This document shows positions 1 to 32,122 of a DNA stretch of 62,033 nucleotides, one piece after another. The position numbers were made by a program, and so were the translations under genes. The stretch covers positions 1 to 62,033 of the IMG/VR virus record IMGVR_UViG_3300043777_000073. One strand, given 5' to 3'. Every line of letters starts with the position of its first letter. The first letter of the stretch is position 1. Below the pieces are notes generated by a model, which did not search any database, was not told the origin of the DNA, and saw nothing but the letters and a program-made list of their open reading frames with translations. This DNA is from a virus. Its lineage: Duplodnaviria > Caudoviricetes.

Positions 1-126
1 GGCGCCGCTCGCGCCGTGGGCGCCGCTCGCGCCGTGGGCGCCGCTCGCGCCGTGGGCGCCGCTCGCGCCGTGGGCGCCGCTCGCGCCGTGGGCGCCGCTC
101 GCGCCGTGGGCGCCGCTCGCGCCGTG
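1..126. repeat. 18-bp tandem repeat GGCGCCGCTCGCGCCGTG x7, truncated by the window edge
   Basis: Seven perfect copies; they encode (HGASGA)n in the methyltransferase frame. Confidence 0.95.
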
Positions 127-2055
127 GAGTTGGCCCGGTGCATCTCGATCGCGGCCAGTCAGTTCACTCCCGTCCACAAGGTCGAAACCATCAAGCCCGA
201 AGTCTCGTTCCCCGCGCGACGGCTTCGCGCAGAAGAAGAAGCGTGCAGCGCCTCCGACATCGCTGCGCGCAGTACCTGGCGAGTCGATGCCACCGAACAT
301 GCCGCCGCCATAATCTGCCCGATGCTCGCCGCCGCCGCTCATACCAGGACGGTCGCCAGATTGTTCGTTTAGGAGCTTGACAGGACAGCTTTCCACGCAA
401 GAGTAGACTTCGCCGACTTCGCCGCGCTTCGTCTGCGCGAGGCTGCCGCGCGTAAAGCCAATCGACTTGACCGGCTGATCGGGTGTGGCGCCTAGAATGG
501 GCCGCACACCGACAACCTCTCCAGTCTTGCGGCATCCGTCCGCATGGCTCAGTGCGATGTGAGCCGGCCAGCGGCCATTCGCCTGCGATTCGAGATACTC
601 CGGCAGCGAGCCAGCCGCGCGCTCGGTATGCAGACCAAAGTCGCCGATGCCGGCCCCGTGACTTGGGTGGCCCAGTCTTTGCGCCACCGCCGCCGCCGCC
701 GCCGCCGCCTTATCCTCTTCGCTGACGTAACCGATCCGGCACGCATCGATGTTGAGCGCGCCAGTTCCATGGCGCAAGACGTTCGCCGCTAGCGTCGGCT
801 CAGAGAGCGGCGCGCGCGCTAGCCACCAGTCCTCGCAGGCCGGCTTGAGCGCAGAGCCCCAGCCGTCCCAGGCCGCCGAGGCCGCCGAGGCCGCCGAGGT
901 AATGGCGTGCCCCGGTTCGCGCATGTCAAGTCCGTAAACATCCGTTTGCACACCGTTCGGACGTCTCGCGGCATATTGGCCTTGCCCGAGCACCGGCCGC
1001 TCATTCGCTTCCGCCAGTGCTTGATATTCACTTGCGAGCGTACCGACCGTGAATGAGATTAGGCTTGCCGCCATGAACTCCGTAGTAGTGGCACTCGTGG
1101 CAGAGGCATTGTCCGTTTCGTGTGTCATGCCTGAGTTCTGGATGTGTTCGGATCGGCTTGATGTGATGAGCTTCCAGTCTTCGAGTAGAGCCGCATATAG
1201 CGCATCGCTTGCCGCCGCCATCGATGACGGCTCGCTTCCAAGCCAGATCTTCAGGGCTGCGGCGCCCCTGAGTCTGTCCGGCGTGACGCCGCTTGGCAAG
1301 TCCAGAGCATCGTTGGGAGCAGTAGAAGTGTCCGTGCGGTCTGCCGCTGTGATTGTCGATGAGCCAACTTTTATATTTTTGACTGATTCTTCCGCATCCG
1401 TCGCATCTGCGCTCCACCATGTGGAAGGCTCGCTTGCATCCGGTGGAGCAGAACATTGCTCCGCTTCGCACGTGTGATGGGCTTCGGTTACCAACGGTCC
1501 CGCACTGGACGCATCGCACGGCAACTTTTCTGGATTGATTCGCTGCGCTGCACGCTCGCGAGCAGAACGGGCCGCGTCTAGCTGGTCCGCCGCAACGCCG
1601 GCACGCGCCGCGTATTCGCCAAACGCGCGGCAGAGCGCCGGTTGATCTACCTCGCGAACCCGCTGCTGCAACCGCACCCACTTGTCCCGCTCCTGTTTAT
1701 CTATATGCTTTGATATGTTAGCGCTTTTCGGAAACCCGCTCGCAAAAAAATGCGCCACTCGATCACGCACATCCCATCCCGCATTCTCGATGGCCATTGC
1801 GGTCCAGTGCGACGTCCTAGGCAGCGCCCACACGAGCGCGTGCGCGCCAGGCTTTGCGACGCGTCGCAACTCCACGAACACTTCGGCTAGCCACGCGATC
1901 CACTGATCGCGTCCGCCTTTATCCTTGTCCCATTCGGCATTCATGAAGGCGATGCCGCTCGGCGGATCGGTCACGATGGCGTCCACGCTCGCGGTGTCCA
2001 TCGTTCGCAGGACTTCGAGCGCGTCGCCGTGGTGGAGAGTCCAGCGAGCGGTCAT
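1..2055 (-). CDS. DNA methyltransferase (N4/N6 beta-class, phage type), 3' end runs off the window
   Basis: Not in the ORF track because it has no stop in the window. I read the frame by hand from ATG 2055 to base 1 and found no stop. It reads MTARWTLHHGDALEVLRTMDTASVDAIVTDPPSGIAFM...LRRVAKPGAH...SGFPKS...WDGWGSALKPACE...GTGALNIDACRI...GRWPAH...GGAARFFFCAKPSRGERD, blocks typical of this family. Motif IV is DPPS. Confidence 0.9.
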   Translation of the reverse strand, partial: MTARWTLHHGDALEVLRTMDTASVDAIVTDPPSGIAFMNAEWDKDKGGRDQWIAWLAEVFVELRRVAKPGAHALVWALPRTSHWTAMAIENAGWDVRDRVAHFFASGFPKSANISKHIDKQERDKWVRLQQRVREVDQPALCRAFGEYAARAGVAADQLDAARSARERAAQRINPEKLPCDASSAGPLVTEAHHTCEAEQCSAPPDASEPSTWWSADATDAEESVKNIKVGSSTITAADRTDTSTAPNDALDLPSGVTPDRLRGAAALKIWLGSEPSSMAAASDALYAALLEDWKLITSSRSEHIQNSGMTHETDNASATSATTTEFMAASLISFTVGTLASEYQALAEANERPVLGQGQYAARRPNGVQTDVYGLDMREPGHAITSAASAASAAWDGWGSALKPACEDWWLARAPLSEPTLAANVLRHGTGALNIDACRIGYVSEEDKAAAAAAAVAQRLGHPSHGAGIGDFGLHTERAAGSLPEYLESQANGRWPAHIALSHADGCRKTGEVVGVRPILGATPDQPVKSIGFTRGSLAQTKRGEVGEVYSCVESCPVKLLNEQSGDRPGMSGGGEHRADYGGGMFGGIDSPGTARSDVGGAARFFFCAKPSRGERDFGLDGFDLVDGSELTGRDRDAPGQLHGASGAHGASGAHGASGAHGASGAHGASGAHGASGAHGASGA
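1028..1681 (-). CDS. HNH endonuclease with N-terminal CxxC...FCSxxC zinc-finger repeats, nested in an alternative frame inside the methyltransferase gene
   Basis: CAICGSTRRLEAHHIKP...NGQCLCHECH HNH core and three FCS/YCS repeats. AGGAG lies 8 nt upstream of the GTG. Confidence 0.88.
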   Translation of the reverse strand: MGAVAAAGSRGRSTGALPRVWRIRGACRRCGGPARRGPFCSRACSAANQSRKVAVRCVQCGTVGNRSPSHVRSGAMFCSTGCKRAFHMVERRCDGCGRISQKYKSWLIDNHSGRPHGHFYCSQRCSGLAKRRHAGQTQGRRSPEDLAWKRAVIDGGGKRCAICGSTRRLEAHHIKPIRTHPELRHDTRNGQCLCHECHYYGVHGGKPNLIHGRYARK

Positions 2056-3024: not shown

Positions 3025-3236
3025 GGCGACACCGCTCCCGTCTGCACGAGCCCAGCGACCTCGCGTCCGGCGTCCGTCAACCCGAGCCGCGCCCAGCCGT
3101 GGCCGATGGGCTCGTGATACATGAGACCAAGCCGGATGAGAATCGTCGGCGTCTCGCCCAGGTGCTCGTCCGCGGGCCGCTCGATGGGCCACGGGCAGCG
3201 AAGGTAGGAGATCGCGCGAGGCGTCAGGCGAATCAT
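3021..3236 (-). CDS. hypothetical protein
   Basis: ATGA-coupled small ORF in the leftward operon. Confidence 0.5.
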   Translation of the reverse strand: MIRLTPRAISYLRCPWPIERPADEHLGETPTILIRLGLMYHEPIGHGWARLGLTDAGREVAGLVQTGAVSP

Positions 3237-11644: not shown

Positions 11645-12392
11645 ACGCAACGCAATCATCGGGGCCGCCGCGTGCGCGGTGGGGCCCGTTCCGGCGATGG
11701 CCGGCACTTCGCATCGCGACAAGTACGGCAAGCTTTGGGAAGAGGGACCGTATGCGTCGCCAGCGCGGCAGGAACTGGCAGAGATACTGCTCGCGGTGCC
11801 GGGGGTGGCGCGGGTGGCGACAACGAGTCCGAACCAAGAGACCAACGCGTGCGGCATACGGTGCACGACGGAGGCCGGTCGCGATTGGTATACCGGCTGC
11901 CTGCAATTCAAGGACGAAGCCCCACGCCCGCAAGAGGCTCTCTGGGAAGAGTTGCGCGACACGACGGCGATGGACGTCGTCATCCGTGGCGATAGCGCGG
12001 AGACGCTTCTCTGCGAAGCTACGGGTGAGCAGAACCGAGCGTTGATTGACGCCAGCAATCTGAATTGGGAGGCGAAGAAGTGGCCGATTGAGGCGCTGGA
12101 GGCGTCGATGCTGGAGCGTCTGCGAGCGACGCCTGGCGTCAGATACGCTCGGGCGCCACGGACGGAACATCTCGGGCGTCGTGCCGACTTCGTCCACGTT
12201 TGCATGTCGGATGGGTGGCACCTTGAATGGGACAAGGACACCAAGCCGTTTTGGCCCACGAGAGAAAGGCTGCTGCGTCGCGTGCTCACGACTGGGCCGT
12301 ACGAGATACAACGCTTCACGGAACGGCGGCGTGCGATAAAAGCGAGGTCTAGAACCCACCAGCGAAACGTGGTAACGAGAGAGAGCCTGTAG
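11631..12392 (+). CDS. hypothetical protein with a twin-arginine-like N-terminus
   Basis: MSITRRNAIIGAAACAVGPVPAMA. Confidence 0.55.
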   Translation: MSITRRNAIIGAAACAVGPVPAMAGTSHRDKYGKLWEEGPYASPARQELAEILLAVPGVARVATTSPNQETNACGIRCTTEAGRDWYTGCLQFKDEAPRPQEALWEELRDTTAMDVVIRGDSAETLLCEATGEQNRALIDASNLNWEAKKWPIEALEASMLERLRATPGVRYARAPRTEHLGRRADFVHVCMSDGWHLEWDKDTKPFWPTRERLLRRVLTTGPYEIQRFTERRRAIKARSRTHQRNVVTRESL

Positions 12393-12404
12393 GAGGGCAC
12401 AATC

Positions 12405-13223
12405 ATGGCATTCGGAAAAAAGAAGGTCGAGATCAACTACAATCAAGCCAATGTCGCGATGCTCGCGGCGGATGCACTCAAGAAGTCTAGAGCGGTGCGT
12501 GTCCGCCTGGCACTGCGGCTGACGTTCGATACGCCGCTTCTCATGCAGCGGTGGACGACGAAAGCGGTGCGGCAGATGCTCGGGAAGATGGTGGGCATGC
12601 CCGAGCCGAAGGTCTCGAAGGATCTAACGAAAGACTTCGAGGAGTCGTACTACCGGAACACGAACGGCGAGCCGGTTATCCCGTGCCGCGTCATCAAGGC
12701 GGCAATCGTCTCCGGGGCCATCGCAACGGGAGATGTCGTCACGAAGGCGGACCTCAAGCGAAGCTTGCGGGTCATCGGCTGGACGGCCCCAGTCGTGTTC
12801 AAAGGCGCGAAGACCATGAGCACCATGATCGTTCGCAACAGCGGCGGCCAGCCTGACGTTCGTGCACGCGCGGAGTTCCCTGTCGGTTCAACCGTCGACA
12901 TCCTTGTCGAGTTTGGCGTGCCGCTCACGCCGGACAAGGTGATGGCCGCCATCGAAGCCTCAGGCGTCGCTATCGGCATTGGCGAGTGGCGACCTGAGAA
13001 CGGCGGCGAGCTTGGGACGTTCCACGTCGACATCTTGAAGAACGACAAGGCGGCGCACGACCGAATCATCAAGGCGACGAGCGTGCCGGAGGACGAGTTC
13101 GTGATTCCGCCCGAGATGCTTCGGACGCTGGAGAGCATTCCAGTGGAGAAGCTAAGCGACTCCGCGCGCAAGGTTCGGTCGTTGGCGGATCACATCGGAA
13201 AGCAGAAAAGAACCGGGACTTGA
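12405..13223 (+). CDS. solitary Cas7/RAMP-like protein (Vipr-like), copy 1
   Basis: N-terminal strand plus TPLLM, IPCRVIKAAIVS helix, VRARAEF, and C-terminal Gly-rich loop GVAIGIGEWRPENGGELGTFHV. AGGAGG RBS. Confidence 0.8.
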   Translation: MAFGKKKVEINYNQANVAMLAADALKKSRAVRVRLALRLTFDTPLLMQRWTTKAVRQMLGKMVGMPEPKVSKDLTKDFEESYYRNTNGEPVIPCRVIKAAIVSGAIATGDVVTKADLKRSLRVIGWTAPVVFKGAKTMSTMIVRNSGGQPDVRARAEFPVGSTVDILVEFGVPLTPDKVMAAIEASGVAIGIGEWRPENGGELGTFHVDILKNDKAAHDRIIKATSVPEDEFVIPPEMLRTLESIPVEKLSDSARKVRSLADHIGKQKRTGT

Positions 13224-13224
13224 A

Positions 13225-13473
13225 ATGACTCGAGACAAGCAGATCAATTTCCGCGTTTCCGAGGACGAGGCGGCCCGATTCGATCGTGTCGCCGAGCACT
13301 ATGGGCTGGCGATGGCAGCGATGATTCGGATGCTCGTGAAGGAGAAGGGACGATACCATACGGGGACGTCGAGGCAGGCATGGTCTCCACCGGATTGGAG
13401 CGGCAAGGACGGGTTAGGCATGGCAGGCAAGGTTTCCACCGGATCGGAAAGTCCAGCACCGGCATCGGACTAA
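13225..13473 (+). CDS. ribbon-helix-helix (CopG-like) regulator whose C-terminus reads into the periodic array
   Basis: KQINFRVSEDEAARFDRVAEHYGLAMAAMIRMLV. Confidence 0.7.
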   Translation: MTRDKQINFRVSEDEAARFDRVAEHYGLAMAAMIRMLVKEKGRYHTGTSRQAWSPPDWSGKDGLGMAGKVSTGSESPAPASD

Positions 13474-13756
13474 ACTCCGAACGCATAGGAAGTCAACGGC
13501 TTGGCGAGGCAGGAGTGTCTAGGAGCGGCTTCGTGGGTTCACGAACGGATGGGACCGGCGTGGCAAGGCAGGCAAGGCAGCGATCGAATCGGCGTCGCAT
13601 GGATTGGATCGGCACGTAGGGGTCAGGTATGGCAGGAACGGATAGGATAGGCGCGGATAGGATACGGAATGGATTGGCAAGGCAGGCGTCGATTGAAGCG
13701 TAGAGGATAGGAGCGGCACGTATCGGTCATCACCTGATTGGACCGGCATGGCAGGC
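13373..13756 (+). ncRNA. 5-nt-periodic array (GGH-NN)n, six units delimited by GGCAGG (putative guide-RNA array 1)
   Basis: Units 13377-13425, 13426-13511, 13512-13570, 13571-13634, 13635-13684 and 13685-13753. Each is a run of pentamers closed by a 4-nt GGCA. Confidence 0.8.
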
Positions 13757-13780
13757 ACTGAAAACATGTAGGAGGACAAC

Positions 13781-14362
13781 ATGAAAAGAGCACCGACGAA
13801 AACGAAGTACAGGTTCAGGCTCATCCAAGACGAGTCACTCGCGCAGCTTGCGGGAGTCGAACTGACGAAGCTGGCAGAACAGCTGAAGGTCAACGACATC
13901 CGGCAGCTAGACGCCGCGACGGTCTGTGACATCGTTCTCAACGACAAGAAGCACCCGCTGAGAAAGCTCCCGATCTGGGGAGACTTCGATACCAAGACAG
14001 CGGCCCGCAAGCACTGGATCGAAACGACGCGTCGGCTCATTTCTGGGATTCAGATCGTGACGTACCATGTCGGCAAACGAGAGCACGTGAGCCCGATGTT
14101 TGTGAGCGCCGAGGCCCCAACGAAGAAAGAAGGGTCGAGGGCGACACGGCGATCGCACGTGATGACGGCCGACAGCTTGGCGCATGACCCGGTATTCATG
14201 TCGGCGGTCGGGACCAAACTGCGGACGATTTTTCATACGCTGCAGAGTTTGGAGCAGTACACGAGCGCGAGGCAGGTCCCCGAGAACCTGAGTGAACTTC
14301 TGGCTACTATCCGAGAGGCGGTGGACGCGTACAACGGAACGATGGCGAGCGAGGCAGCGTAG
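13781..14362 (+). CDS. conserved phage protein downstream of array 1 (putative accessory protein)
   Basis: AGGAGG RBS. AQLAGVEL...HPLRK..IWGDFDTKTAARKHWIETTRRLISGI resembles the PLH..FEWDD..AA..YR..QAR.LI phage family. Confidence 0.75.
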   Translation: MKRAPTKTKYRFRLIQDESLAQLAGVELTKLAEQLKVNDIRQLDAATVCDIVLNDKKHPLRKLPIWGDFDTKTAARKHWIETTRRLISGIQIVTYHVGKREHVSPMFVSAEAPTKKEGSRATRRSHVMTADSLAHDPVFMSAVGTKLRTIFHTLQSLEQYTSARQVPENLSELLATIREAVDAYNGTMASEAA

Positions 14363-14364
14363 GA

Positions 14365-14441
14365 GTCCAGACATCGCACGTCCCGATGCGGTTCGGTAAC
14401 GCTAGTATGGGCAACGCTAGACAAGGCAAGAGGCTTCGGTC
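14365..14441 (+). ncRNA. 5-nt-periodic unit ending GGCAAG plus a TTCG hairpin (putative guide)
   Basis: gtcca gacat cgcac gtccc gatgc ggttc ggtaa cgcta gtatg ggcaa cgcta gacaa ggcaa, then aggc-ttcg-gtct. Confidence 0.55.
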
Positions 14442-14449
14442 TGAGCACG

Positions 14450-14848
14450 ATGAGCAAACCGAAAGCACCACGAATCCCGACGGGACTGAGCAAGCACGTC
14501 AGCATGCGTGGCTTGGCCGTTCGAGTCGCGAAGGCCAGTGGGGAGCCAGCCCACAACGTGGAGATGAAAATTCGCAGGCAACTTCTCAAGTGGCTTGCTC
14601 ATGACGTCCAGCAAGGGCTCAACCCCACTTGGATGTACCGCGCTCCGCACTCACGGACGTGGCGGATCAACCTCAGCGCTCTGCGGGCGGCGCACAAGGA
14701 ATTTTTCGAAGATCCATTGCCTCAAGACTTGGAAGCCAGGATCGAAGCGCTCGAGACCGAGGTCGACGAACTCAAGTGGGCGCGCGACACGATGGCGACC
14801 GAGATCGGAAAGCTCAGGGGCGCGGTCGAGGGGAGGGCCGGGGCGTGA
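14450..14848 (+). CDS. hypothetical protein with C-terminal coiled coil
   Basis: LEARIEALETEVDELK heptads. Confidence 0.65.
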   Translation: MSKPKAPRIPTGLSKHVSMRGLAVRVAKASGEPAHNVEMKIRRQLLKWLAHDVQQGLNPTWMYRAPHSRTWRINLSALRAAHKEFFEDPLPQDLEARIEALETEVDELKWARDTMATEIGKLRGAVEGRAGA

Positions 14849-14964
14849 GGCAGACAGGCGATCTGCGAAGCGCTAGAACAGTGAACGCGCGCTCACGCTT
14901 ATCCCACATGAAAAATGTGCGTGTCAAGTGGGACCTTTTGCATGGTATAAGGCAGCGTAACTCA

Positions 14965-15384
14965 ATGGGAAATATCCAAACGAAATCGAAGCTACTGAAG
15001 CTCATCAGGAAAGAGGAGCAGGTTTGCCGTTCGCCAGAGCCACGGGTCGGTGCGGCGCAAATCATGAAGCGCGTCAATCGCTCCGAGGGCGAGTTCGTGA
15101 AGCACGCAGCGGAGAACCACGACGTTCGCATCTGGCGCCACGGGTGGCCGGACTTCTTGCTGCAAGACAGGTCGACCGGGAAGACCTACGCCGTCGAGGT
15201 CAAGCGCGGTAAGGACGTTGTGCGGGAGAGCCAGGCGGCGATGTTCGTTGCACTTGAGGCGGCGGGCATCCCGGTCTACGTGTGGAACCCGGCCGTGCCG
15301 AATCGACTGAGGCATTGGCGGAGCTACGCCGAGTGGAAGCCGGAGCCGCCACGGGAGTGGTATGAGCGCTGGGGAAAGAAGTAA
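14965..15384 (+). CDS. VRR-NUC / PD-(D/E)xK nuclease
   Basis: GWPDFL...AVEVKRGKDVVRESQ...LEAAGIPVYVW; start uncertain. Confidence 0.8.
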   Translation: MGNIQTKSKLLKLIRKEEQVCRSPEPRVGAAQIMKRVNRSEGEFVKHAAENHDVRIWRHGWPDFLLQDRSTGKTYAVEVKRGKDVVRESQAAMFVALEAAGIPVYVWNPAVPNRLRHWRSYAEWKPEPPREWYERWGKK

Positions 15385-15389
15385 TCTAC

Positions 15390-15635
15390 ATGGCCAGATC
15401 GTTCACGCTCCAGAACGGCGACATCCTCGTGATTCCAGAGGGCATTCATACGGAGACGGTGAGCCCGTGGCACCCGTCGGTCACTGGCGGCCGCGCCGTG
15501 GTCGAGGTCCAGCGGATCGAAGCCTTCGCGGCCAGCCTCAAGCGGGCGGCGGAGTCCGTCGACTTCGACTTCGTCGCGCGGTTCTCGCGCAGGCCCGAGC
15601 CCAGCGCGGAAGCTGAACCACAGTCGCGAACTTGA
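15390..15635 (+). CDS. hypothetical protein
   Basis: ORF following the nuclease gene. Confidence 0.55.
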   Translation: MARSFTLQNGDILVIPEGIHTETVSPWHPSVTGGRAVVEVQRIEAFAASLKRAAESVDFDFVARFSRRPEPSAEAEPQSRT

Positions 15636-15851
15636 CCTATGTCGGTGGCCACGTATCGTCACGCGATGCCATGCATCGCGCATCAAGTTAGTAGGAGTCG
15701 CGCGCTGGACCAGGCCTCCCTTCGGCTCGGCCCTCCTACTCGTTTCGTTTGGTGCGCTCACCCAGCCCGACTCCGCTAACGCATTGCGTAGGTTGCACGT
15801 GGAAACGTAGTAATCACACATGCTTGCGTAATTGACGCACGCAATTTCATC

Positions 15852-16361
15852 TTGACCCCACCCGCCAAGCCTCGCCGCAAAGCCAGATACGCAAAAGACG
15901 ACGCCCGGGCGGTAGACGCCCTAGAGCGCCAGCGCAAGGTGCTTGAGCTTCGGATCAAGGGCTTCGGCCACCGGGAGATCGCCAAGGAGCTTGGCATCGC
16001 GGTGGGGACCTCCCACAAGGACACCGAGCTTGGCCTCAAGGCCCTGCAACCGCTCGAAGAGGCGGAGGTCTTGCTCGGCATCGAGCTTGCGCGCCTGGAC
16101 CGCTACCAGAAGGCGCTCGACGACGGCGCGGAGTCTGGGGACGCCCGGAGCGTGCTGGCCGCGCTGAAGATCATGGATCGGCGGGCCAAGTACCTCGGCC
16201 TGGATGCCCCGGCGCAGCTCGAGCACTCGGGCACCCTGAAGCACATCAACGTTGACCCTTCCAAGCTCAGCGACACCGAACTTCGAGACCTTGCGTCAGG
16301 AGCTTGGCCCCAGGCCCCCGGCGGCGATGGTGGCAGCGGCGGAGCTGGAGCGGCGGCGTAG
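15852..16361 (+). CDS. terminase small subunit (HTH)
   Basis: LELRIKGFGHREIAKELGI; LKIMDRRAKYLGLDAP; overlaps the large subunit. Confidence 0.8.
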   Translation: MTPPAKPRRKARYAKDDARAVDALERQRKVLELRIKGFGHREIAKELGIAVGTSHKDTELGLKALQPLEEAEVLLGIELARLDRYQKALDDGAESGDARSVLAALKIMDRRAKYLGLDAPAQLEHSGTLKHINVDPSKLSDTELRDLASGAWPQAPGGDGGSGGAGAAA

Positions 16362-17733
16362 GCTTCGCACGACGGGCCTGCTCGACTTCGTTCCGCTGCT
16401 CAGCCCGCAGTGGGATAGTCCGAAGCACCTTGAGCCGCTCACGTCGCGCTTCGAGCGCGCGCTGATCGAACCGATTCGCTTTCTCTTCAGCGTCCCGCCG
16501 CAGCACGGCAAGACGGAGACGGTCGCCCACGGCATCGTCTGGACGATGCTGCGCGACCCTACTCGGTCGCACATCTACGTCACCTACCAGACCAAGCGAA
16601 CGCGCGAGGTCAGCATCCGAACCCGCCAGCTCGCTGAGCGCGCAGGGCTCCGGCCGGAAGGCACGCAAGACCTCTGGCGCCTGCCGGAGGGCGGGCAGAT
16701 AAGCTTCACCTCCTTCGACGGGCAGCTGGGCGGTACGCCCGCGTCCGGTCTCATCATCGTCGACGACCCGCACAAGAACCGGCAAGAGGCCGAGTCGTCA
16801 ATCGTACGAGAGCACGTCTGGAGCGAGTTCAACTCGTCGGTCATGACTCGTATGCACAATACGACATCGGTCGTGGTCATCCACACGCGCTGGACGACCG
16901 ACGACCTCATAGCGCGGCTCGAGAAAATCGACGACCCGATTGAGCCAGAGCGCAAGCTCTGGCCCTACACGAACCTGCCGGCCATAAGCGAGGCGGGCGA
17001 GCTACTTTGGCCCGAGCACAAGTCGCGGCGTCTCATCGAAGAGGCCCGGGCGCGAAACGAATACGCGTGGTGGTCGCTCTTCATGGGGCAGCCGAGACCC
17101 CCAGGCGGCACGGTCTTTCACGACGTGCAGTTCTATGACGAACTGCCCAAGACCTACCGCGTCGCCTTTGGCCTGGACCTCGCGTACACGGCGAAGACAC
17201 GCAGCGACTACTCGTGCGCGGTCGTGCTCGCCGAGAGCGGCGGCAACTACTACGTACTAGACGTCAAGCGGGCGCAGTGCCCGACGCCGGAGTTCGCCCC
17301 CAAGCTTCGGGAGATCAAGGCGTCGTACCCGGGCGCGCAAGGTCTCTGGCACACGTCGACGACGGAGCCGGGAACCGCGGACTTGCTCCGCGAAGTCCTC
17401 GGATTCCACATCCGCAGCGAGCTTGCGCGCGGTGACCCCTTCCAGCGCGCTCAGCCCGTCGCGGCAGCCTGGAACACACGCGAGGGGCATCCGGGCCGCG
17501 TTTTCCTTCCCCGCGACAGGCCGTGGGTCGAGGCGTTCGTGTCCGAGCTTGTGAACTTCACCGGGGACCCGAAGCGCCACGATGACCAGGTGGTCGCGCT
17601 GGCGTCCGCGTATCAACTGCTCTCGATGGGGCATGCGGAAGTGCCCCGAGCCTTCCCGACCAAGTTCACGAAGCAGACGGGCGGCGGCCCCGTGTTCCCC
17701 GAAGGCGGCAAGGGCGGAGGATTCGTCTGGTGA
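16327..17733 (+). CDS. terL: terminase large subunit
   Basis: Walker A PPQHGKT, Walker B LIIVDDP, HTRW, nuclease GLDLA...SDYS and HDDQV. The ORF is open from 16252; ATG 16327 chosen. Confidence 0.95.
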   Translation: MVAAAELERRRRLRTTGLLDFVPLLSPQWDSPKHLEPLTSRFERALIEPIRFLFSVPPQHGKTETVAHGIVWTMLRDPTRSHIYVTYQTKRTREVSIRTRQLAERAGLRPEGTQDLWRLPEGGQISFTSFDGQLGGTPASGLIIVDDPHKNRQEAESSIVREHVWSEFNSSVMTRMHNTTSVVVIHTRWTTDDLIARLEKIDDPIEPERKLWPYTNLPAISEAGELLWPEHKSRRLIEEARARNEYAWWSLFMGQPRPPGGTVFHDVQFYDELPKTYRVAFGLDLAYTAKTRSDYSCAVVLAESGGNYYVLDVKRAQCPTPEFAPKLREIKASYPGAQGLWHTSTTEPGTADLLREVLGFHIRSELARGDPFQRAQPVAAAWNTREGHPGRVFLPRDRPWVEAFVSELVNFTGDPKRHDDQVVALASAYQLLSMGHAEVPRAFPTKFTKQTGGGPVFPEGGKGGGFVW

Positions 17734-17930
17734 ATGACGTTCAGCTCGTGTGCACATGCGGTCGGCACTTCTACCACTACGCCACCAAGGCGTACGTCGC
17801 GCGCCTGTCCTCGGGCCTTGTCGTGCTCAAGCCTCACTCGTGGCCGCCGTGCGTGCAGAAGCTCGACGCCGAGCGGCTCGAGCGCGCCGAGGAGATCACG
17901 CGAGACGATCTGCCCGCGGTGCTCAAGTGA
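17730..17930 (+). CDS. hypothetical protein
   Basis: GTGA-coupled to terL. Confidence 0.55.
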   Translation: MNDVQLVCTCGRHFYHYATKAYVARLSSGLVVLKPHSWPPCVQKLDAERLERAEEITRDDLPAVLK

Positions 17931-18436
17931 GCAACCTCGCGCCGTACTCGCCGCAGTTCCGTGTCCGAACGGATGCGTGGGGAAAAGATGAGACGAAGCC
18001 GGCGACCCCCGTGGTCGCGAGGCAGCCGGTCATAGATTGGATCAGGGCGAACGCGCCGGACCTTCGGCTTGGAAAACTCGCCAGCTGTGAGCATTGGAAC
18101 GAGACTGAGAAACGCAGCGAGCGCTTCGAGCATCGCCGCTGCATTGCGGCGTTCACATTCGACGGAGAGCGTTTCAACCTGGTCTCGTGCGCTGGCGTAG
18201 CCGAGGATCCAGACGATCACGTCATCCGACTTTGCGAGGATGCGCTGCGCAAGGCGATGAAGATCGAGGCCGCCCAGGGCCGGCCGCGTGAGCCCGGACT
18301 CGAGCAGCAGGTCATCGAAGCGGAACTCCAAGGCGACGCTTCCGAAGTGGCCAGACTGACGCAGCTTCTCATCGGCGGCCAACCCCGCGATCCAGATCGG
18401 TTTCGACCGATACCAATTCGACAGCGACAAGTGTGA
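17927..18436 (+). CDS. hypothetical protein
   Basis: GTGA-coupled ORF. Confidence 0.6.
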   Translation: MSNLAPYSPQFRVRTDAWGKDETKPATPVVARQPVIDWIRANAPDLRLGKLASCEHWNETEKRSERFEHRRCIAAFTFDGERFNLVSCAGVAEDPDDHVIRLCEDALRKAMKIEAAQGRPREPGLEQQVIEAELQGDASEVARLTQLLIGGQPRDPDRFRPIPIRQRQV

Positions 18437-18473
18437 AAACTAGAAGGCCCCAGCCCATCGCTGGGCCAGGGCC
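18436..18473 (-). terminator. hairpin with T-rich tail closing array 2
   Basis: Minus strand ggccctggcccagcgatgggctggggcc-ttctagtttt, at a convergent junction. Confidence 0.55.
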
Positions 18474-18476
18474 GTC

Positions 18477-18786
18477 TCCTTGCATCACGTCGCGCTACCA
18501 CGCTCAGCAGAGCACTGGCATAGGACGCAGGACCGTGCCACACGAGAACCAGCCACGCCGTGCGCGACCCCGCGCTGCCGGAGCTTGCGCCTGATTGATA
18601 GTTCCCGCCCGAGCCTTCCGACGCGAACGGGAATCCTTGGATTGCATTGCCTGGCCGGACCCGACGACGGCCCAGGGCGCAAGGCCGCACGCGGCGTCGA
18701 CCCGCCACGCAGTGCCGAACCTCGGATGGCATCTCATTGCCGAGCGCCGCGAAACGACACCTGGCGAAGCCCGGCACAGCGCTGCC
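18477..18786 (-). ncRNA. 5-nt-periodic array (NGY-NN)n downstream of RAMP-like gene 2 (putative guide-RNA array 2)
   Basis: 30 in-register pentamers 18786-18637 and 20 in-register pentamers 18579-18480; each run ends CAAGGA. Confidence 0.8.
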
Positions 18787-18791
18787 CTAAT

Positions 18792-19409
18792 TTATTCAGC
18801 CGCCGCCGAATGCTCGACGCGGTCCCACCGCTCGACGACGAACTTCCCGAAGACCCCCTTGCGGGCAGGGCGAAAGTCGCAGAGGCCGACTCGTTTCCCA
18901 GCGAGGTCCCATAGCTGCCGGATCGTATTCTCGCCGATCTCGGCATCGTCTAGTTCGATGCGTACGTGGAACGCCCAGCGGTCAAACCGAGGGCGCACGA
19001 TGCAGACCGCTTCGTTGCCGTTCGGGTTGACCCCCTTACGGACGTCGGGCTCCCAGGCGACCGCCTTTTTATCGTTGTCGGGGTCAACGAGCGGCAGCGC
19101 GAAATCCAGCATCGACATGAGTCCCGGCAGGATGGTCGACTTGCCAGTGCTGATCTGCCGCTTCGCGTCGAGGCGCACGAACACGCCTGCCGCAATGAGG
19201 CACGCCATCAGATTCTCACCGGGCAGCATCGGCTTCCCGTCGTGCAAATATAGCTTCGGCTCCGCATCTTCGCGCGGCGTGCGGACATGTCCAATGTCCT
19301 TCGCCTTTGGCTCCTTGACCTTCGTCCTAAGTTTTTCGAGGACGTTGTCACCGACTCGGTTCATGAGTAGTGGCGACGTTCCTCTGCACTTCACTCGAAT
19401 CAACAACAT
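18792..19409 (-). CDS. solitary Cas7/RAMP-like protein (Vipr-like), copy 2
   Basis: IRVKCRGTSPLLMN, LPGENLMACLIAAG, VRPRFDRW, AGKRVGLCDFRPARKGVFGKFVV. Confidence 0.82.
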   Translation of the reverse strand: MLLIRVKCRGTSPLLMNRVGDNVLEKLRTKVKEPKAKDIGHVRTPREDAEPKLYLHDGKPMLPGENLMACLIAAGVFVRLDAKRQISTGKSTILPGLMSMLDFALPLVDPDNDKKAVAWEPDVRKGVNPNGNEAVCIVRPRFDRWAFHVRIELDDAEIGENTIRQLWDLAGKRVGLCDFRPARKGVFGKFVVERWDRVEHSAAAE

Positions 19410-19423
19410 GACGAGCCCTTCTC

Positions 19424-19491
19424 CCCATATTTCGGGGTGCCGTGGATAACGATGCGCTGAACTACAATGCCAAGCCGTGCGAAGGCTGGCC
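19424..19491 (-). ncRNA. leader 5-nt-periodic unit upstream of RAMP-like gene 2
   Basis: ggcca gcctt cgcac ggctt ggcat tgtag ttcag cgcat cgtta tccac, then a cccc-gaaatat-gggg hairpin. Confidence 0.65.
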
Positions 19492-19667
19492 TACTCGTCT
19501 TTGACTTTTCCCTCCCCATGCCGCCTCCGATACTCCGCACGGACCATCCGTCGGAGCACGTCGGCCTTCTCAGTGCCGTCGATATCCGCCAGTAACGCCA
19601 GCATTCGCGTCTCATCCGTGGAAAGACAGAGCGTGAATCTGAAGGGGCGGCGGGCGATGCGAGGCAT
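19491..19667 (-). CDS. ribbon-helix-helix-like small regulator (58 aa, below the ORF-track cutoff)
   Basis: Hand translation: MPRIARRPFRFTLCLSTDETRMLALLADIDGTEKADVLRRMVRAEYRRRHGEGKVKDE. Confidence 0.65.
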   Translation of the reverse strand: MPRIARRPFRFTLCLSTDETRMLALLADIDGTEKADVLRRMVRAEYRRRHGEGKVKDE

Positions 19668-19885
19668 GCGGATTAGCTACGCCAACACATGCGGACAGTC
19701 AACGGAAAAGAGATGAAACAGCAAGACAAGCCGGCGCCATCGCGCAGGCCACGACATGGCACGCGTCGCGGACCGGCCCCCGAGGTCATCATCCGGCCGC
19801 GCCGGCACTACACGGGCGCGACGGGAGCGAGCATCGGGGACCTTCCCGAGCGCGCCGAGTTCGATCGCGGGAGCCGCGTCATCAA

Positions 19886-20083
19886 GTGACCCAGCCGACG
19901 CAGGCGCAGCTCGACTACGTCGAATGGGCGTCGCTCTGGCCGCTCGACAAGCCCGAGCCGCATCTCCCCTACGGCACCCGCTGGCGCTACTTCCGCAGCC
20001 TCTACAACGCGCCCACCCTGACGGGCCTCTTGCTCGGCGTCTTCCGTACGCCCTGGATGCAGGAGCGCCTCGCCGCCACATGA
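19886..20083 (+). CDS. hypothetical protein
   Basis: Coupled small ORF. Confidence 0.5.
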   Translation: MTQPTQAQLDYVEWASLWPLDKPEPHLPYGTRWRYFRSLYNAPTLTGLLLGVFRTPWMQERLAAT

Positions 20084-30919: not shown

Positions 30920-32122
30920 ATGAAGACCCTTCTGTCACTCACCAAGGACCGCGACGACGCTCTCAAGGCCGTGGCTTCGGCTACGAGCGCGGGTGCGCGC
31001 AAGAAGTCGCTTGCCTCGCTCGAGGCCGCGTCGCTCGCTCTGGCCAAGTTCCAGGCTCAGCTCGCATCCAAGGCGGCAGCTCGCAAGCCGGTCGCCGCCG
31101 TCGACGCCGACGAGGAGGATAGCGACGACGAGGAAGAGGAGAGCGAAGAGGAAGAAGAGGAGTCGACCGACTCATCGGACGACGAGCCCAAGAAGCCGAT
31201 GGAGAAGAAGTCCAAGAAGGCGAAGGCCAAGTCGAAAGACAAGGACGACGACTCCGACGACGATGACGGGGACGACGACGACGACGAAGACGAAGAGGAA
31301 GAAGACGAGGAGGAAGAGGACGACGAAGAGGAGACCTCCGACTCCGAGGACGACGACGAGGAGGAAGAGGACGAGGAGGACGACGAAGAGGAAGAGGAAG
31401 AGCGCGCCGCAAGCGCGTCGGCCCTCGCGTCCGCTCGCTCGGTGCTTTCGGCGGCCAAGAAGGCAAACGACCGCCGCGCCATCACCTCGGCCCGCGCCCA
31501 CTTCAAGTCCGTCAAGTCGGCCGTCGCCGCCATGAGCAAGACCTCGGCGCGCTACCACAAGCTCAAGGCCGTCTGCGCCGCTGTCACCGGCAAGAAGGGC
31601 CTGCAGAGCATCCTCGGCGGCATCCAGGGTCTCGCGGTCAAGGCCGCGCAGGAAGAGGCCAACACGCGCGACATCGCCAAGATGAAGGCGGCCTCGAAGG
31701 CCAAGCGCGTGAACGACATGCTCGCGCAAGCGGTCGCCGACGGCAAGATCACACAGAAGACCGTGCCCATCCTGCGCGACGGCATGACCAACACCAAGAC
31801 GCTGCGCGCGTACCTCGGCGCTCTGCCGAAGCTCGTGCGAAGCACCAAGGATCCCGAGCTTGTCGGGCGCACGCTTCGTGGCAGCACGGACGCAACGGCC
31901 GACAAGGACCGCCAGGAAATCCTCGACTTCCAGGCGCTCAGCCCCGACCTGCAGAAGTACGTCACGCAGGAAGCCGCTGCGCAGGGCAAATCGATCGACG
32001 ACTTCATGAAGTCGATGCAGGCCGTGTCGGCGAAGGCTGGCGGCGGCGTGTCTCCCATCGCGGTCAAGCGGGCCGAAGCGGACTTCATTCCCCACCGTTC
32101 GAACGGTGCAGCAGGTCAGTAA
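30920..32122 (+). CDS. putative capsid scaffolding protein with a long Asp/Glu tract
   Basis: Lies between protease and capsid genes; LAQAVADGKIT motif. Confidence 0.65.
   Translation: MKTLLSLTKDRDDALKAVASATSAGARKKSLASLEAASLALAKFQAQLASKAAARKPVAAVDADEEDSDDEEEESEEEEEESTDSSDDEPKKPMEKKSKKAKAKSKDKDDDSDDDDGDDDDDEDEEEEDEEEEDDEEETSDSEDDDEEEEDEEDDEEEEEERAASASALASARSVLSAAKKANDRRAITSARAHFKSVKSAVAAMSKTSARYHKLKAVCAAVTGKKGLQSILGGIQGLAVKAAQEEANTRDIAKMKAASKAKRVNDMLAQAVADGKITQKTVPILRDGMTNTKTLRAYLGALPKLVRSTKDPELVGRTLRGSTDATADKDRQEILDFQALSPDLQKYVTQEAAAQGKSIDDFMKSMQAVSAKAGGGVSPIAVKRAEADFIPHRSNGAAGQ

What the first reader, a model, noticed from the sequence alone, without database searches (positions are those of the whole stretch)
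12405..14441. Candidate RNA-guided system: solitary Cas7/RAMP-like gene + RHH + 5-nt-periodic array + accessory gene (locus 1)
Seen: a 272-aa ORF with RAMP/Cas7-type motifs and no other cas gene or CRISPR array in the window. It is followed by an RHH gene and about 380 nt of pentamers, each a semi-conserved GGA/GGC/GGT plus a variable dinucleotide (e.g. ggcat ggtct ccacc ggatt ggagc ggcaa ggacg ggtta ggcat ggca). A 4-nt GGCA phase slip cuts it into six units of 49, 86, 59, 64, 50 and 69 nt. Known: Cas7-family proteins polymerise on guide RNA with a fixed nucleotide step. Inference: one subunit binds each pentamer, the triplet is scaffold and the dinucleotides carry target information. This matches my recollection of recently reported phage VIPR systems (GGY/NN repeats), so the class may not be new. 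The frequent GGA triplets and the GGCAGG delimiter may define a subtype.
Basis: partly seen in the sequence, partly recalled or inferred. Interest (0 to 1): 0.95.

Follow-up and report, generated by a model that had tools for sequence, protein, structure and literature searches.

The report
Phage VIPR RNA-guided system, adenine-rich repeats
This soil-phage locus is a member of the recently published VIPR family (a small Cas7-like protein plus guide RNAs built from five-base repeats), so it is real but not a new kind of system, although about half of its repeats carry an adenine where the studied systems carry a pyrimidine.

Summary
Window 13373-13756 is a 384-nt tract with 5-nt periodicity: lag-5 autocorrelation is 0.435, against 0.275 in shuffles (z 7.8) and a maximum of 0.343 in 600 other windows.

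Relatives carry the same kind of tract on the vipr strand: 76 of 80 IMG/VR loci do, and the 4 without are cut short by contig ends. The 193-aa gene is a conserved accessory gene. The RHH gene is not conserved.

The 4-nt GGCA slip is family-wide and fits the "staggered arrays" of the VIPR preprint, so it does not mark a subtype. What is unusual is adenine at repeat position 3: a 55% share, the highest of 61 distinct loci. The preprint's YNNGG×4 screen finds nothing in this array. No target was found and no RNA data exist.

A second, divergent VIPR locus lies at about 18450-19667 on the minus strand.

Verdict: a new member of a known kind, of moderate interest.

The parts
12405..13223 (+). vipr gene: 272-aa Vipr-family RAMP protein. 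The core is residues ~30-216. A clade-specific C-terminal helical extension covers ~215-272.
   Evidence: Sequence homology: the ORF is. phrog_4652 (unknown function) hits at E 2e-13. The family profile A4 hits PDB 36pp_D 'SUSP1 Vipr protein' at E 2.3e-15 over residues 4-195 of 202. The clade profile A1 hits the same chain at E 1.9e-5. The single sequence gives no PDB hit.

Kept residues: G-loop E194-W195-R196 and thumb R155.
13225..13473 (+). 82-aa ORF with an N-terminal ribbon-helix-helix-like domain (residues ~2-41). Its last ~100 nt overlap array units 1-2. It is not conserved in related loci.
   Evidence: Family matches are weak and all below the curated cut-offs: Pfam NikA-like E 2.5e-4 and RelB E 2.5e-3; NCBIfam RelB/DinJ E 1.3e-4. 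tblastn against L001-L007 found no homologue; the best hit was E 0.29.
13373..13756 (+). vrRNA array: GG-H-NN pentamers interrupted by seven GGCAGG motifs, each a 4-nt GGCA slip.
   Evidence: Periodicity and background are. HNNGG×>=4 runs on the + strand occur only here in the window. As RNA the tract is no more structured than shuffles (z +0.68). No Rfam family or ribozyme matches in 12000-20000.
13377..13426 (+). unit 1: 10 pentamers, counting the G shared with the next unit
13426..13512 (+). unit 2: 87 nt and irregular, with two internal +1 shifts. It holds the stop codon of the RHH ORF.
13512..13571 (+). unit 3: 12 pentamers
13571..13635 (+). unit 4: 13 pentamers
13635..13685 (+). unit 5: 51 nt, with one internal +1 insertion after GGATA×2-GGCGC-GGATA×2
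13685..13754 (+). unit 6: 14 pentamers
13781..14362 (+). candidate vap (vipr-accessory) gene: 193 aa, no known family, conserved next to vipr in relatives
   Evidence: Conservation: tblastn hits in L001, L002, L004 and L005 at 29-40% identity, E 1e-40 to 2e-15; alignment A3. A homologue is also visible in L006 by eye.

Family and fold: no Pfam, PHROGs, PADLOC or NCBIfam family. The word-based homologue search found only the protein itself. The AF2 model is weak (pLDDT 69.6) and has no PDB fold match at E <= 0.001. The Atlas gives only viral hypothetical clusters and a weak winged-helix/Rep-like lead.

Best explanation
The locus is a VIPR (Viral Interference Programmable Repeat) system carried by a soil phage.

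Inferred mechanism, by homology to SUSP1 VIPR:
- The tract 13373-13756 is transcribed on the + strand. It yields about six guide RNAs (vrRNAs) of about 10-14 pentamers each.
- One 272-aa Vipr protomer binds each pentamer. It holds the GG-H triplet through the G-loop (E194-W195-R196), the thumb (R155) and the beta-sheet (Q48).
- The two variable bases of each pentamer are presented to pair with double-stranded DNA, skipping every third target base.
- The filament then silences transcription of a competing mobile element.

The 4-nt GGCA unit breaks the pentamer register. Neighbouring guides therefore overlap by one G (a staggered array). It most likely sets where one filament ends and the next begins.

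The 193-aa gene is a conserved accessory (vap) gene of unknown activity. The RHH gene is a locus-specific addition, most likely a small transcriptional regulator.

Shown here: family membership of the protein, the fold, the periodic array and its statistics, and conservation of the array and the vap gene in relatives.

Inferred only: transcription and processing of the array, filament assembly, DNA targeting by the 1-nt skip rule, and silencing.
For: Protein:
- The profile of 88 family members (the window protein is the first row) hits the solved SUSP1 Vipr protein at E 2.3e-15, over residues 4-195 of 202.
- Residues reported as functional in SUSP1 align to kept residues. D177/W178/R179 align to E194/W195/R196, and R138 to R155. 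R155 and R196 are invariant in A4 (paper 10.64898/2026.04.26.720927, Results part 1 read).

Array:
- Lag-5 z is 7.8. GG carries high information and NN almost none.
- Counting the shared G, unit lengths are 50, 60, 65 and 70 nt for 4 of the 6 units. That is within the published 9-16 repeats per guide.

Relatives:
- 5 of 7 first-round loci have periodic tracts. L006 shows only one GGCAGG before its contig ends, and L007 has no flank.
- 76 of 80 IMG/VR loci have such a tract, with GG on the vipr strand. The 4 without have at most 546 nt downstream.
- Across the non-redundant tracts, 118 of 187 GGCAGG spacings are 4 mod 5. The median spacing is 59 nt.
- vap is conserved in 4 of 4 loci with enough flank by tblastn.

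Context: the window is an IMG/VR virus record. A terminase large subunit lies 2 kb downstream.
Against: - No expression or RNA-end data exist. The only run that holds the stretch is one soil-metagenome DNA run.
- No target was found under the 1-nt skip rule. In the window itself the best matches equal the shuffled-order controls. In the fetched loci the best match is 78% of NN positions, below the preprint's 80% bar. Four exact-pattern scans of IMG/VR returned nothing. One scan of GTDB genome contigs returned nothing.
- The strict published repeat (YNNGG, at least 4 in a row) is absent from the array. In SUSP1 the position-3 pocket is said to exclude purines. Here half of position 3 is adenine.
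- By my count from the list, 18 of 67 pentamers lack GG. Units 2 and 5 have internal frame breaks, so some guides may be decayed.
- The window protein alone does not hit SUSP1 Vipr. Only the profiles do.
Confidence: 0.88

Rival explanations
1. The locus is a decaying or partly inactive VIPR system. The protein genes are intact, but the array has drifted and few or none of the six units still guide anything.
For: By my count from the list, 18 of 67 pentamers lack GG. Units 2 and 5 have internal +1 shifts. The RHH ORF runs 100 nt into the array. No target was found.
Against: The first preprint states that internal degeneracy of vrRNAs is frequent (methods section). Four of the six units keep exact register and published lengths. 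All three ORFs are open, and vipr and vap have close-to-consensus ribosome-binding sites (GTAGGAGG) ahead of them (read from the sequence). Failing to find a target in the collections searched is weak evidence, because exact matches were required.
Confidence: 0.07
2. The periodic tract acts as DNA, not RNA. It would be an array of binding sites (iteron- or centromere-like) for the adjacent RHH or 193-aa protein, and the RAMP-like gene would be unrelated to it.
For: RHH proteins commonly bind tandem DNA repeats (general knowledge, not tested here). An RHH-like gene abuts the tract. The Atlas gives a weak winged-helix/Rep-like structural lead for the 193-aa protein.
Against: The tract follows vipr relatives in loci that lack any RHH gene. 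The GG runs lie on the vipr coding strand in all 76 loci that have a main tract; only L076 has an extra upstream tract on the other strand. A 5-nt period with two free bases per unit is the published vrRNA format.
Confidence: 0.02
3. It is a working VIPR system whose natural job differs from the SUSP1 model. It might regulate host genes, or target RNA rather than the DNA of rival elements.
For: The structural preprint reports that VIPR can pair with ssRNA, though with incomplete filaments. Targets of this array are unknown. The NN positions are only 40% G+C (54 of 134) in a 64.8% G+C phage.
Against: No self-target stands above shuffled controls in the 62-kb record. In the preprint, predicted targets of 18 of 20 SUSP1-clade and 48 of 66 P. 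fulva-clade vrRNAs map to a phage satellite or to prophages.
Confidence: 0.05

Closest known systems
SUSP1 / Pseudomonas fulva VIPR systems (type II VIPR; bioRxiv 10.64898/2026.04.26.720920 and 10.64898/2026.04.26.720927; PDB 36pp)
   Same: The protein is of the Vipr family (profile E 2.3e-15), with the G-loop [D/E]-W-R and the thumb Arg. The locus is minimal and phage-borne, with vipr plus an accessory gene. The guides are built from GG-x-NN pentamers, 10-14 per unit. There is no CRISPR array.
   Different: - The protein is 272 aa against 202 aa, with an extra ~60-residue C-terminal helical part.
- There is no invariable 3' tail or pseudoknot between guides. Units abut through a 4-nt GGCA slip.
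- Position 3 is A in 34 of 67 pentamers, whereas SUSP1 is reported to exclude purines.
- Residues aligned to the SUSP1 position-3 pocket differ: E71 aligns to R95 and M72 to V96.
- An RHH gene sits between vipr and the array.
- The vap gene has no detectable similarity to any known family.
'Staggered' vrRNA arrays and NNNGG-type repeats mentioned for other VIPR types in the same preprint (fig. S17 and S18 legends, type-classification methods)
   Same: Adjacent guides overlap by 1 nt, which is what a GGCA+G junction gives. The repeat consensus is looser than YNNGG.
   Different: I could not see the figures, the tree (fig. S16) or data S4. So I cannot say which of the seven types this clade is, or whether it is represented among the 667 systems at all. 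A few clade members carry NCBI as a source, so they may be included.
Csm3 / Cas7 backbone subunits of type III (and type VII) CRISPR-Cas effectors
   Different: No Cas7 or RAMP sequence family is matched in Pfam, NCBIfam or PADLOC. There is no CRISPR array and no partner cas gene. The step along the RNA is 5 nt rather than 6, and the guide is non-contiguous.
Unannotated Vipr relatives in cultured actinophages (Gordonia phages Pipp and UmaThurman; Mycobacterium phages Quico, Florinda, Saal and others)
   Same: tblastn gives 32-35% identity over residues 43-213. All are annotated 'hypothetical protein'.
   Different: They are shorter (207 aa in Pipp) and lack the C-terminal part. In Pipp the neighbouring genes are tightly packed, and the one 115-nt upstream gap shows no obvious GG-pentamer tract. 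I did not follow this further.

Membership tests
VIPR system | Vipr protein: homologue of the founding Vipr proteins | tested here: met
   Profile A4 (88 sequences) hits 36pp_D SUSP1 Vipr at E 2.3e-15, over residues 4-195 of 202. Clade profile A1 hits at E 1.9e-5. The single sequence gives no hit.
VIPR system | RAMP hallmarks: RRM core, glycine-rich loop, thumb | tested here: met
VIPR system | Tandem YNNGG (GGY/NN) repeats, at least four in a row (the preprint's primary screen) | tested here: not met
   There are 0 runs of (YNNGG)x>=4 in 13373-13756. The only run in the window lies elsewhere, on the minus strand at 3082-3101. The cause is adenine at position 3 (34 of 67).
VIPR system | Related consensus accepted by the preprint (NNNGG and similar), with conserved GG and hypervariable NN | tested here: met
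   HNNGG x>=4 gives 4 runs on the + strand, all inside the array. Information content by position is 1.33, 1.06, 0.61, 0.06 and 0.04 bits.
VIPR system | Guides of about 9-16 repeats | tested here: met
   Units 1, 3, 4 and 6 are 10, 12, 13 and 14 pentamers. Units 2 and 5 are irregular.
VIPR system | Minimal locus without CRISPR array or other cas genes; vipr plus vap | tested here: met
   TRF finds no CRISPR-like array in the window. There are no Cas families among the 12 neighbouring proteins scanned with Pfam, nor among the 4 scanned with PADLOC and NCBIfam. The conserved 193-aa neighbour is shown. Not every window ORF was scanned.
VIPR system | Periodic tract conserved beside relatives of the protein | tested here: met
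   76 of 80 IMG/VR loci have one, and the 4 misses lack flank. So do L001-L005 of the first 7 loci.
VIPR system | vrRNAs expressed and co-purifying with Vipr | not testable with these tools
   Only one DNA run holds the stretch.
VIPR system | DNA targets matching the NN-x (1-nt skip) code | tested here: inconclusive
   No match stands above controls in the window or the fetched loci. Exact patterns were absent from IMG/VR and from GTDB genome contigs. Mismatch-tolerant searches of large collections were not possible.
VIPR type II (SUSP1-like) | Invariable structured 3' tail (pseudoknot) after each repeat tract | tested here: not met
   Units abut directly. The only conserved element is GGYRW-GGCAGG. 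The array as a whole folds no better than shuffles, z +0.68.
CRISPR-Cas Cas7/Csm3 | Match to a curated Cas7/RAMP sequence family, and a CRISPR array with partner cas genes | tested here: not met
   No hit in Pfam, NCBIfam or PADLOC. No CRISPR array was found. The similarity is at fold level only.

The most novel reading that the evidence does not exclude
This phage lineage carries a Vipr variant whose position-3 pocket accepts adenine (a GG-M/NN code). The SUSP1 structure says that pocket excludes purines. The guides here are tail-less and delimited only by a 4-nt register slip.

The same phage also runs a second, 22%-identical Vipr with a different repeat flavour (roughly N-G-Y-N-N). If both systems work, the two protein-guide pairs would be natural orthogonal partners that do not cross-load. 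That would bear on how repeat recognition evolves and on multiplexed use of VIPR as a tool.
Probability: 0.3. Interest if true: 0.55.

Novelty: new member of a known kind. Interest (0 to 1): 0.35.

Why it matters
VIPR was described only in 2026, and all experiments so far concern two closely related type II systems. This locus adds a well-delimited natural example from an uncultured, high-G+C soil phage. It has three features that bear on open questions for the family:

1. How strict is the position-3 pyrimidine rule? Here A is the commonest base, and the preprint's primary sequence screen would miss the array.
2. How are guide ends defined when there is no structured tail? Here the only delimiter is a 4-nt slip, and I find that slip in many distant Vipr loci.
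3. Can one phage run two divergent VIPR systems side by side?

None of this changes the picture of what VIPR is. It mainly offers test cases and a caution for repeat-based detection pipelines.

Tried and rejected
**Target searches**
- Within the window, for 9 unit blocks and skip lengths 0-3, the best scores equalled the shuffled-order controls.
- 22 in-register units from six arrays were scanned against the window, L001-L007 and L010. The best match was 78% of NN positions.
- Exact NN-x patterns for units 3, 4, 1 and 6 gave 0 hits in IMG/VR.
- The unit 1 pattern gave 0 hits in GTDB genome contigs.
- These scans need perfect matches, so they do not show that targets are absent.

**Position-3 determinant**
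- I suspected that the G-loop pair I192-G193 (against L/V-C in relatives) explains adenine use. This is rejected: IGIGEWR also occurs in loci with 0-2% A.
- Residues aligned to the SUSP1 pocket (R95, V/I96, I190) are shared with GGY-using relatives.
- Only Q48 is unique to the window and L001, and these two are one lineage, so this is not independent evidence.

**vap function**
- The fold model is weak (pLDDT 69.6).
- Foldseek found no PDB match at E <= 0.001.
- The word-based homologue search found only the protein itself.

**Vipr-vap binding**
- The complex prediction gave no verdict, with a score of 0.00 against a mark of 0.32. This is evidence neither for nor against binding.

**Expression**
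- No RNA holder is listed; only one soil-metagenome DNA run holds the stretch. I did not lay reads.

**Host**
- The terminase is at most 32% identical to any cultured phage.
- There are no tRNAs.
- The clade alignment found no relative in GTDB genome contigs.
- The host remains unknown.

**Other**
- No Rfam family or ribozyme matches in 12000-20000.
- No sigma-70 promoter or intrinsic terminator is found in 12000-15000.
- Figures, the tree and the data files of the preprints were not visible, so no VIPR type could be assigned.
Full report
**What is there.** On the + strand the window holds four features:
- a 272-aa ORF at 12405-13223;
- an 82-aa ORF at 13225-13473, starting one base after the first ORF's stop;
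- a 384-nt non-coding-looking tract at 13373-13756;
- a 193-aa ORF at 13781-14362.

The record is an IMG/VR virus contig of 62 kb, 64.8% G+C, with estimated completeness of 69%. A VRR-NUC nuclease gene and a large terminase gene lie just downstream.

- The tract's lag-5 autocorrelation is 0.435, with further peaks at lags 10, 15 and 20. Shuffles give 0.275 (z 7.8). In 600 other 384-nt windows of the record the maximum is 0.343. Lag-3 is depressed (0.199), which argues against coding.
- GGCAGG occurs seven times, against 0.25 expected.
- I read 67 pentamers in register, leaving out the phase-broken stretch 13466-13511. They carry 1.33, 1.06, 0.61, 0.06 and 0.04 bits at positions 1-5. This amounts to GG, then A/C/T but never G, then two free bases.
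- If the G after each GGCA is counted in both neighbours, units 1, 3, 4 and 6 are exactly 10, 12, 13 and 14 pentamers. Units 2 and 5 carry extra one-base insertions.
- Runs of four or more HNNGG on the + strand occur only in this tract.
- As RNA the tract is not unusually structured (z +0.68). It matches no Rfam family or ribozyme.

**The protein is a Vipr.**
- It matches no Pfam, NCBIfam or PADLOC family. Its only family hit is PHROG 4652, of unknown function (E 2e-13).
- An exhaustive search found 1151 cluster representatives at E <= 0.001. Only 24 of them reach E <= 1e-30. Of the listed hits, most at that level align through about residue 260. More distant hits, typically about 200 aa long, mostly stop near residue 210. 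The last ~60 residues are therefore a clade-specific addition.
- A profile of the close clade hits the solved 'SUSP1 Vipr protein' (PDB 36pp) at E 1.9e-5. A profile of 88 diverse family members hits it at E 2.3e-15, over residues 4-195 of 202. The single sequence does not hit it.
- In those alignments the SUSP1 residues reported to hold the two guanines correspond as follows: H17 to Q48, R138 to R155, D177 to E194 and W178 to W195. The neighbouring R179 corresponds to R196. R155 and R196 are invariant across the 88 sequences.

**Relatives carry the same kind of array.**
- Of the first seven related loci, L001-L005 have 5-periodic tracts with z from 3.8 to 11. L006 ends about 40 nt after its first GGCAGG. 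L007 has no flank.
- A wider scan returned 80 IMG/VR loci. 76 of them have such a tract, with the GG runs on the vipr strand. The other four have at most 546 nt of downstream sequence.
- In the non-redundant tracts GGCAGG occurs 346 times. GG follows at +9 (the slipped register) in 214 cases and at +10 (in phase) in 70.
- Of 187 spacings between 30 and 120 nt, 118 are 4 mod 5. The median spacing is 59 nt.
- So the 4-nt GGCA slip is a general way of abutting guides in a large part of the family. It is not a mark of this locus.
- It fits the 'staggered arrays', in which vrRNAs overlap by 1 nt, named in the legend of fig. S18 of the first VIPR preprint. I could not see the figure itself.

**The neighbouring genes.**
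- The 193-aa gene has homologues next to vipr in L001, L002, L004 and L005 (29-40% identity), and in L006 by eye. It lies either before or after the array, so it is a conserved accessory gene.
- Its function stays open. It matches no family, the model is weak, and there is no PDB fold match. The only lead is a weak winged-helix/Rep-like similarity in the Atlas.
- The RHH-like ORF has no counterpart in the related loci. It runs 100 nt into the array before its stop.
- No paper in the library holds both 'vrRNA' and 'ribbon-helix-helix'. The first preprint holds neither 'ribbon' nor 'RHH'.

**How it most likely works.** This is inferred by homology with SUSP1 VIPR. For 10.64898/2026.04.26.720920 I read Results, Discussion and several methods sections. 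For 10.64898/2026.04.26.720927 I read the first part of Results and the Discussion. For 10.64898/2026.10.15.759431 I read the abstract and outline only.
1. The array is transcribed.
2. One Vipr protomer binds each pentamer and buries the GG-H triplet.
3. The free dinucleotides pair with double-stranded DNA while every third target base is skipped.
4. The filament silences a rival mobile element.

The GGCA slip would end one filament and start the next. None of these steps was tested here.

**What speaks against this, or is missing.**
- There are no RNA data and no target was found.
- About a quarter of the pentamers are degenerate.
- Two of the six units have broken register.

**What is unusual.** Three things stand out.
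1. Adenine is the commonest base at position 3.
   - It accounts for 34 of 67 in-register pentamers.
   - Among GGNNNGG matches its share is 0.55. This is the highest of 61 distinct loci, followed by the closest relative L001 at 0.46. Most loci are at or below 0.10.
   - The preprint's primary screen (YNNGG, four in a row) finds nothing in this array. The preprint does say it found NNNGG-type repeats by other means.
   - In SUSP1 the position-3 pocket is reported to exclude purines.
   - I found no residue that explains the difference.
2. An RHH gene is inserted between vipr and the array.
3. The same phage has a second VIPR-like locus.
   - It includes a 205-aa gene at 18792-19409 on the minus strand. 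The clade profile (A1) hits it at E 1e-6. It is 22% identical to the first protein and has a GLCDFRP loop.
   - It is followed by a periodic tract at 18450-18790 (lag-5 0.39, z 4.2) whose pentamers look like N-G-Y-N-N.

**Verdict.** This is a VIPR system, a class published in 2026. It is a new member of a known kind, with an adenine-rich repeat variant that would be worth a bench test. I could not assign one of the seven published types, because the tree, the type figures and the data files were not visible.

Noticed in passing
window 18450-19667, minus strand: A second, divergent VIPR-like locus. It has three parts.
- A 205-aa Vipr-like gene at 18792-19409. The clade profile A1 hits it at E 1e-6 and it is 22% identical to the first protein. 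It has a GLCDFRP G-loop. Its single-sequence hit to SUSP1 Vipr is only E 0.16.
- A 5-periodic tract at 18450-18790 (lag-5 0.39, z 4.2), with pentamers nearer N-G-Y-N-N and no GGCAGG. It ends at a G+C-rich hairpin.
- Upstream, a 58-aa ORF at 19491-19667 that looks RHH-like by eye only. It has no Pfam hit, and its pairwise E to the other RHH is 0.17.

Sources.
   Followed up: partly
window 13377-13450: Units 1 and 2 of the array begin with near-identical stretches: five pentamers that differ at a few positions, including two in position 3. This looks like a duplicated guide that then diverged. Units 4 and 6, and two L001 units, also share a CGAT-containing start after the delimiter.
   Followed up: no
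window 1-127: A perfect 18-nt tandem repeat, 7.1 copies, at the very start of the record (TRF score 254). It may be a terminal or assembly feature.
   Followed up: no
window 31244-31402: A long GAC/GAG-rich (acidic-residue-coding) low-complexity repeat, with periods 3, 12 and 15.
   Followed up: no
L004 5447-5478 and 6704-6735: In this relative the array sits between two terminator-like hairpins followed by T runs. So there it looks like a transcription unit of its own, after vipr-vap. In the window the array lies inside the gene row, between the RHH gene and vap (read).
   Followed up: no
L025, L067, L077, L084-L088; L003; L076 591-870: Some Vipr loci have periodic tracts on both sides of vipr, or only upstream (L003). 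L076 has an extra tract with the repeats on the opposite strand (CC-periodic).
   Followed up: no
GenBank phages, e.g. MN234179.1 32468-33091 (L010 2432-3055): Cultured Gordonia and Mycobacterium phages encode Vipr relatives annotated as hypothetical proteins: 30 records at 32-35% identity. In Gordonia phage Pipp no obvious GG-pentamer tract is seen in the one intergenic gap next to the gene.
   Followed up: partly
window 13373-13756: The variable dinucleotides are only 40% G+C (54 of 134) in a 64.8% G+C phage. G is the rarest base at positions 4 and 5 (12 and 10 of 67). This may reflect avoidance of out-of-register GG, or the composition of the unknown targets.
   Followed up: no
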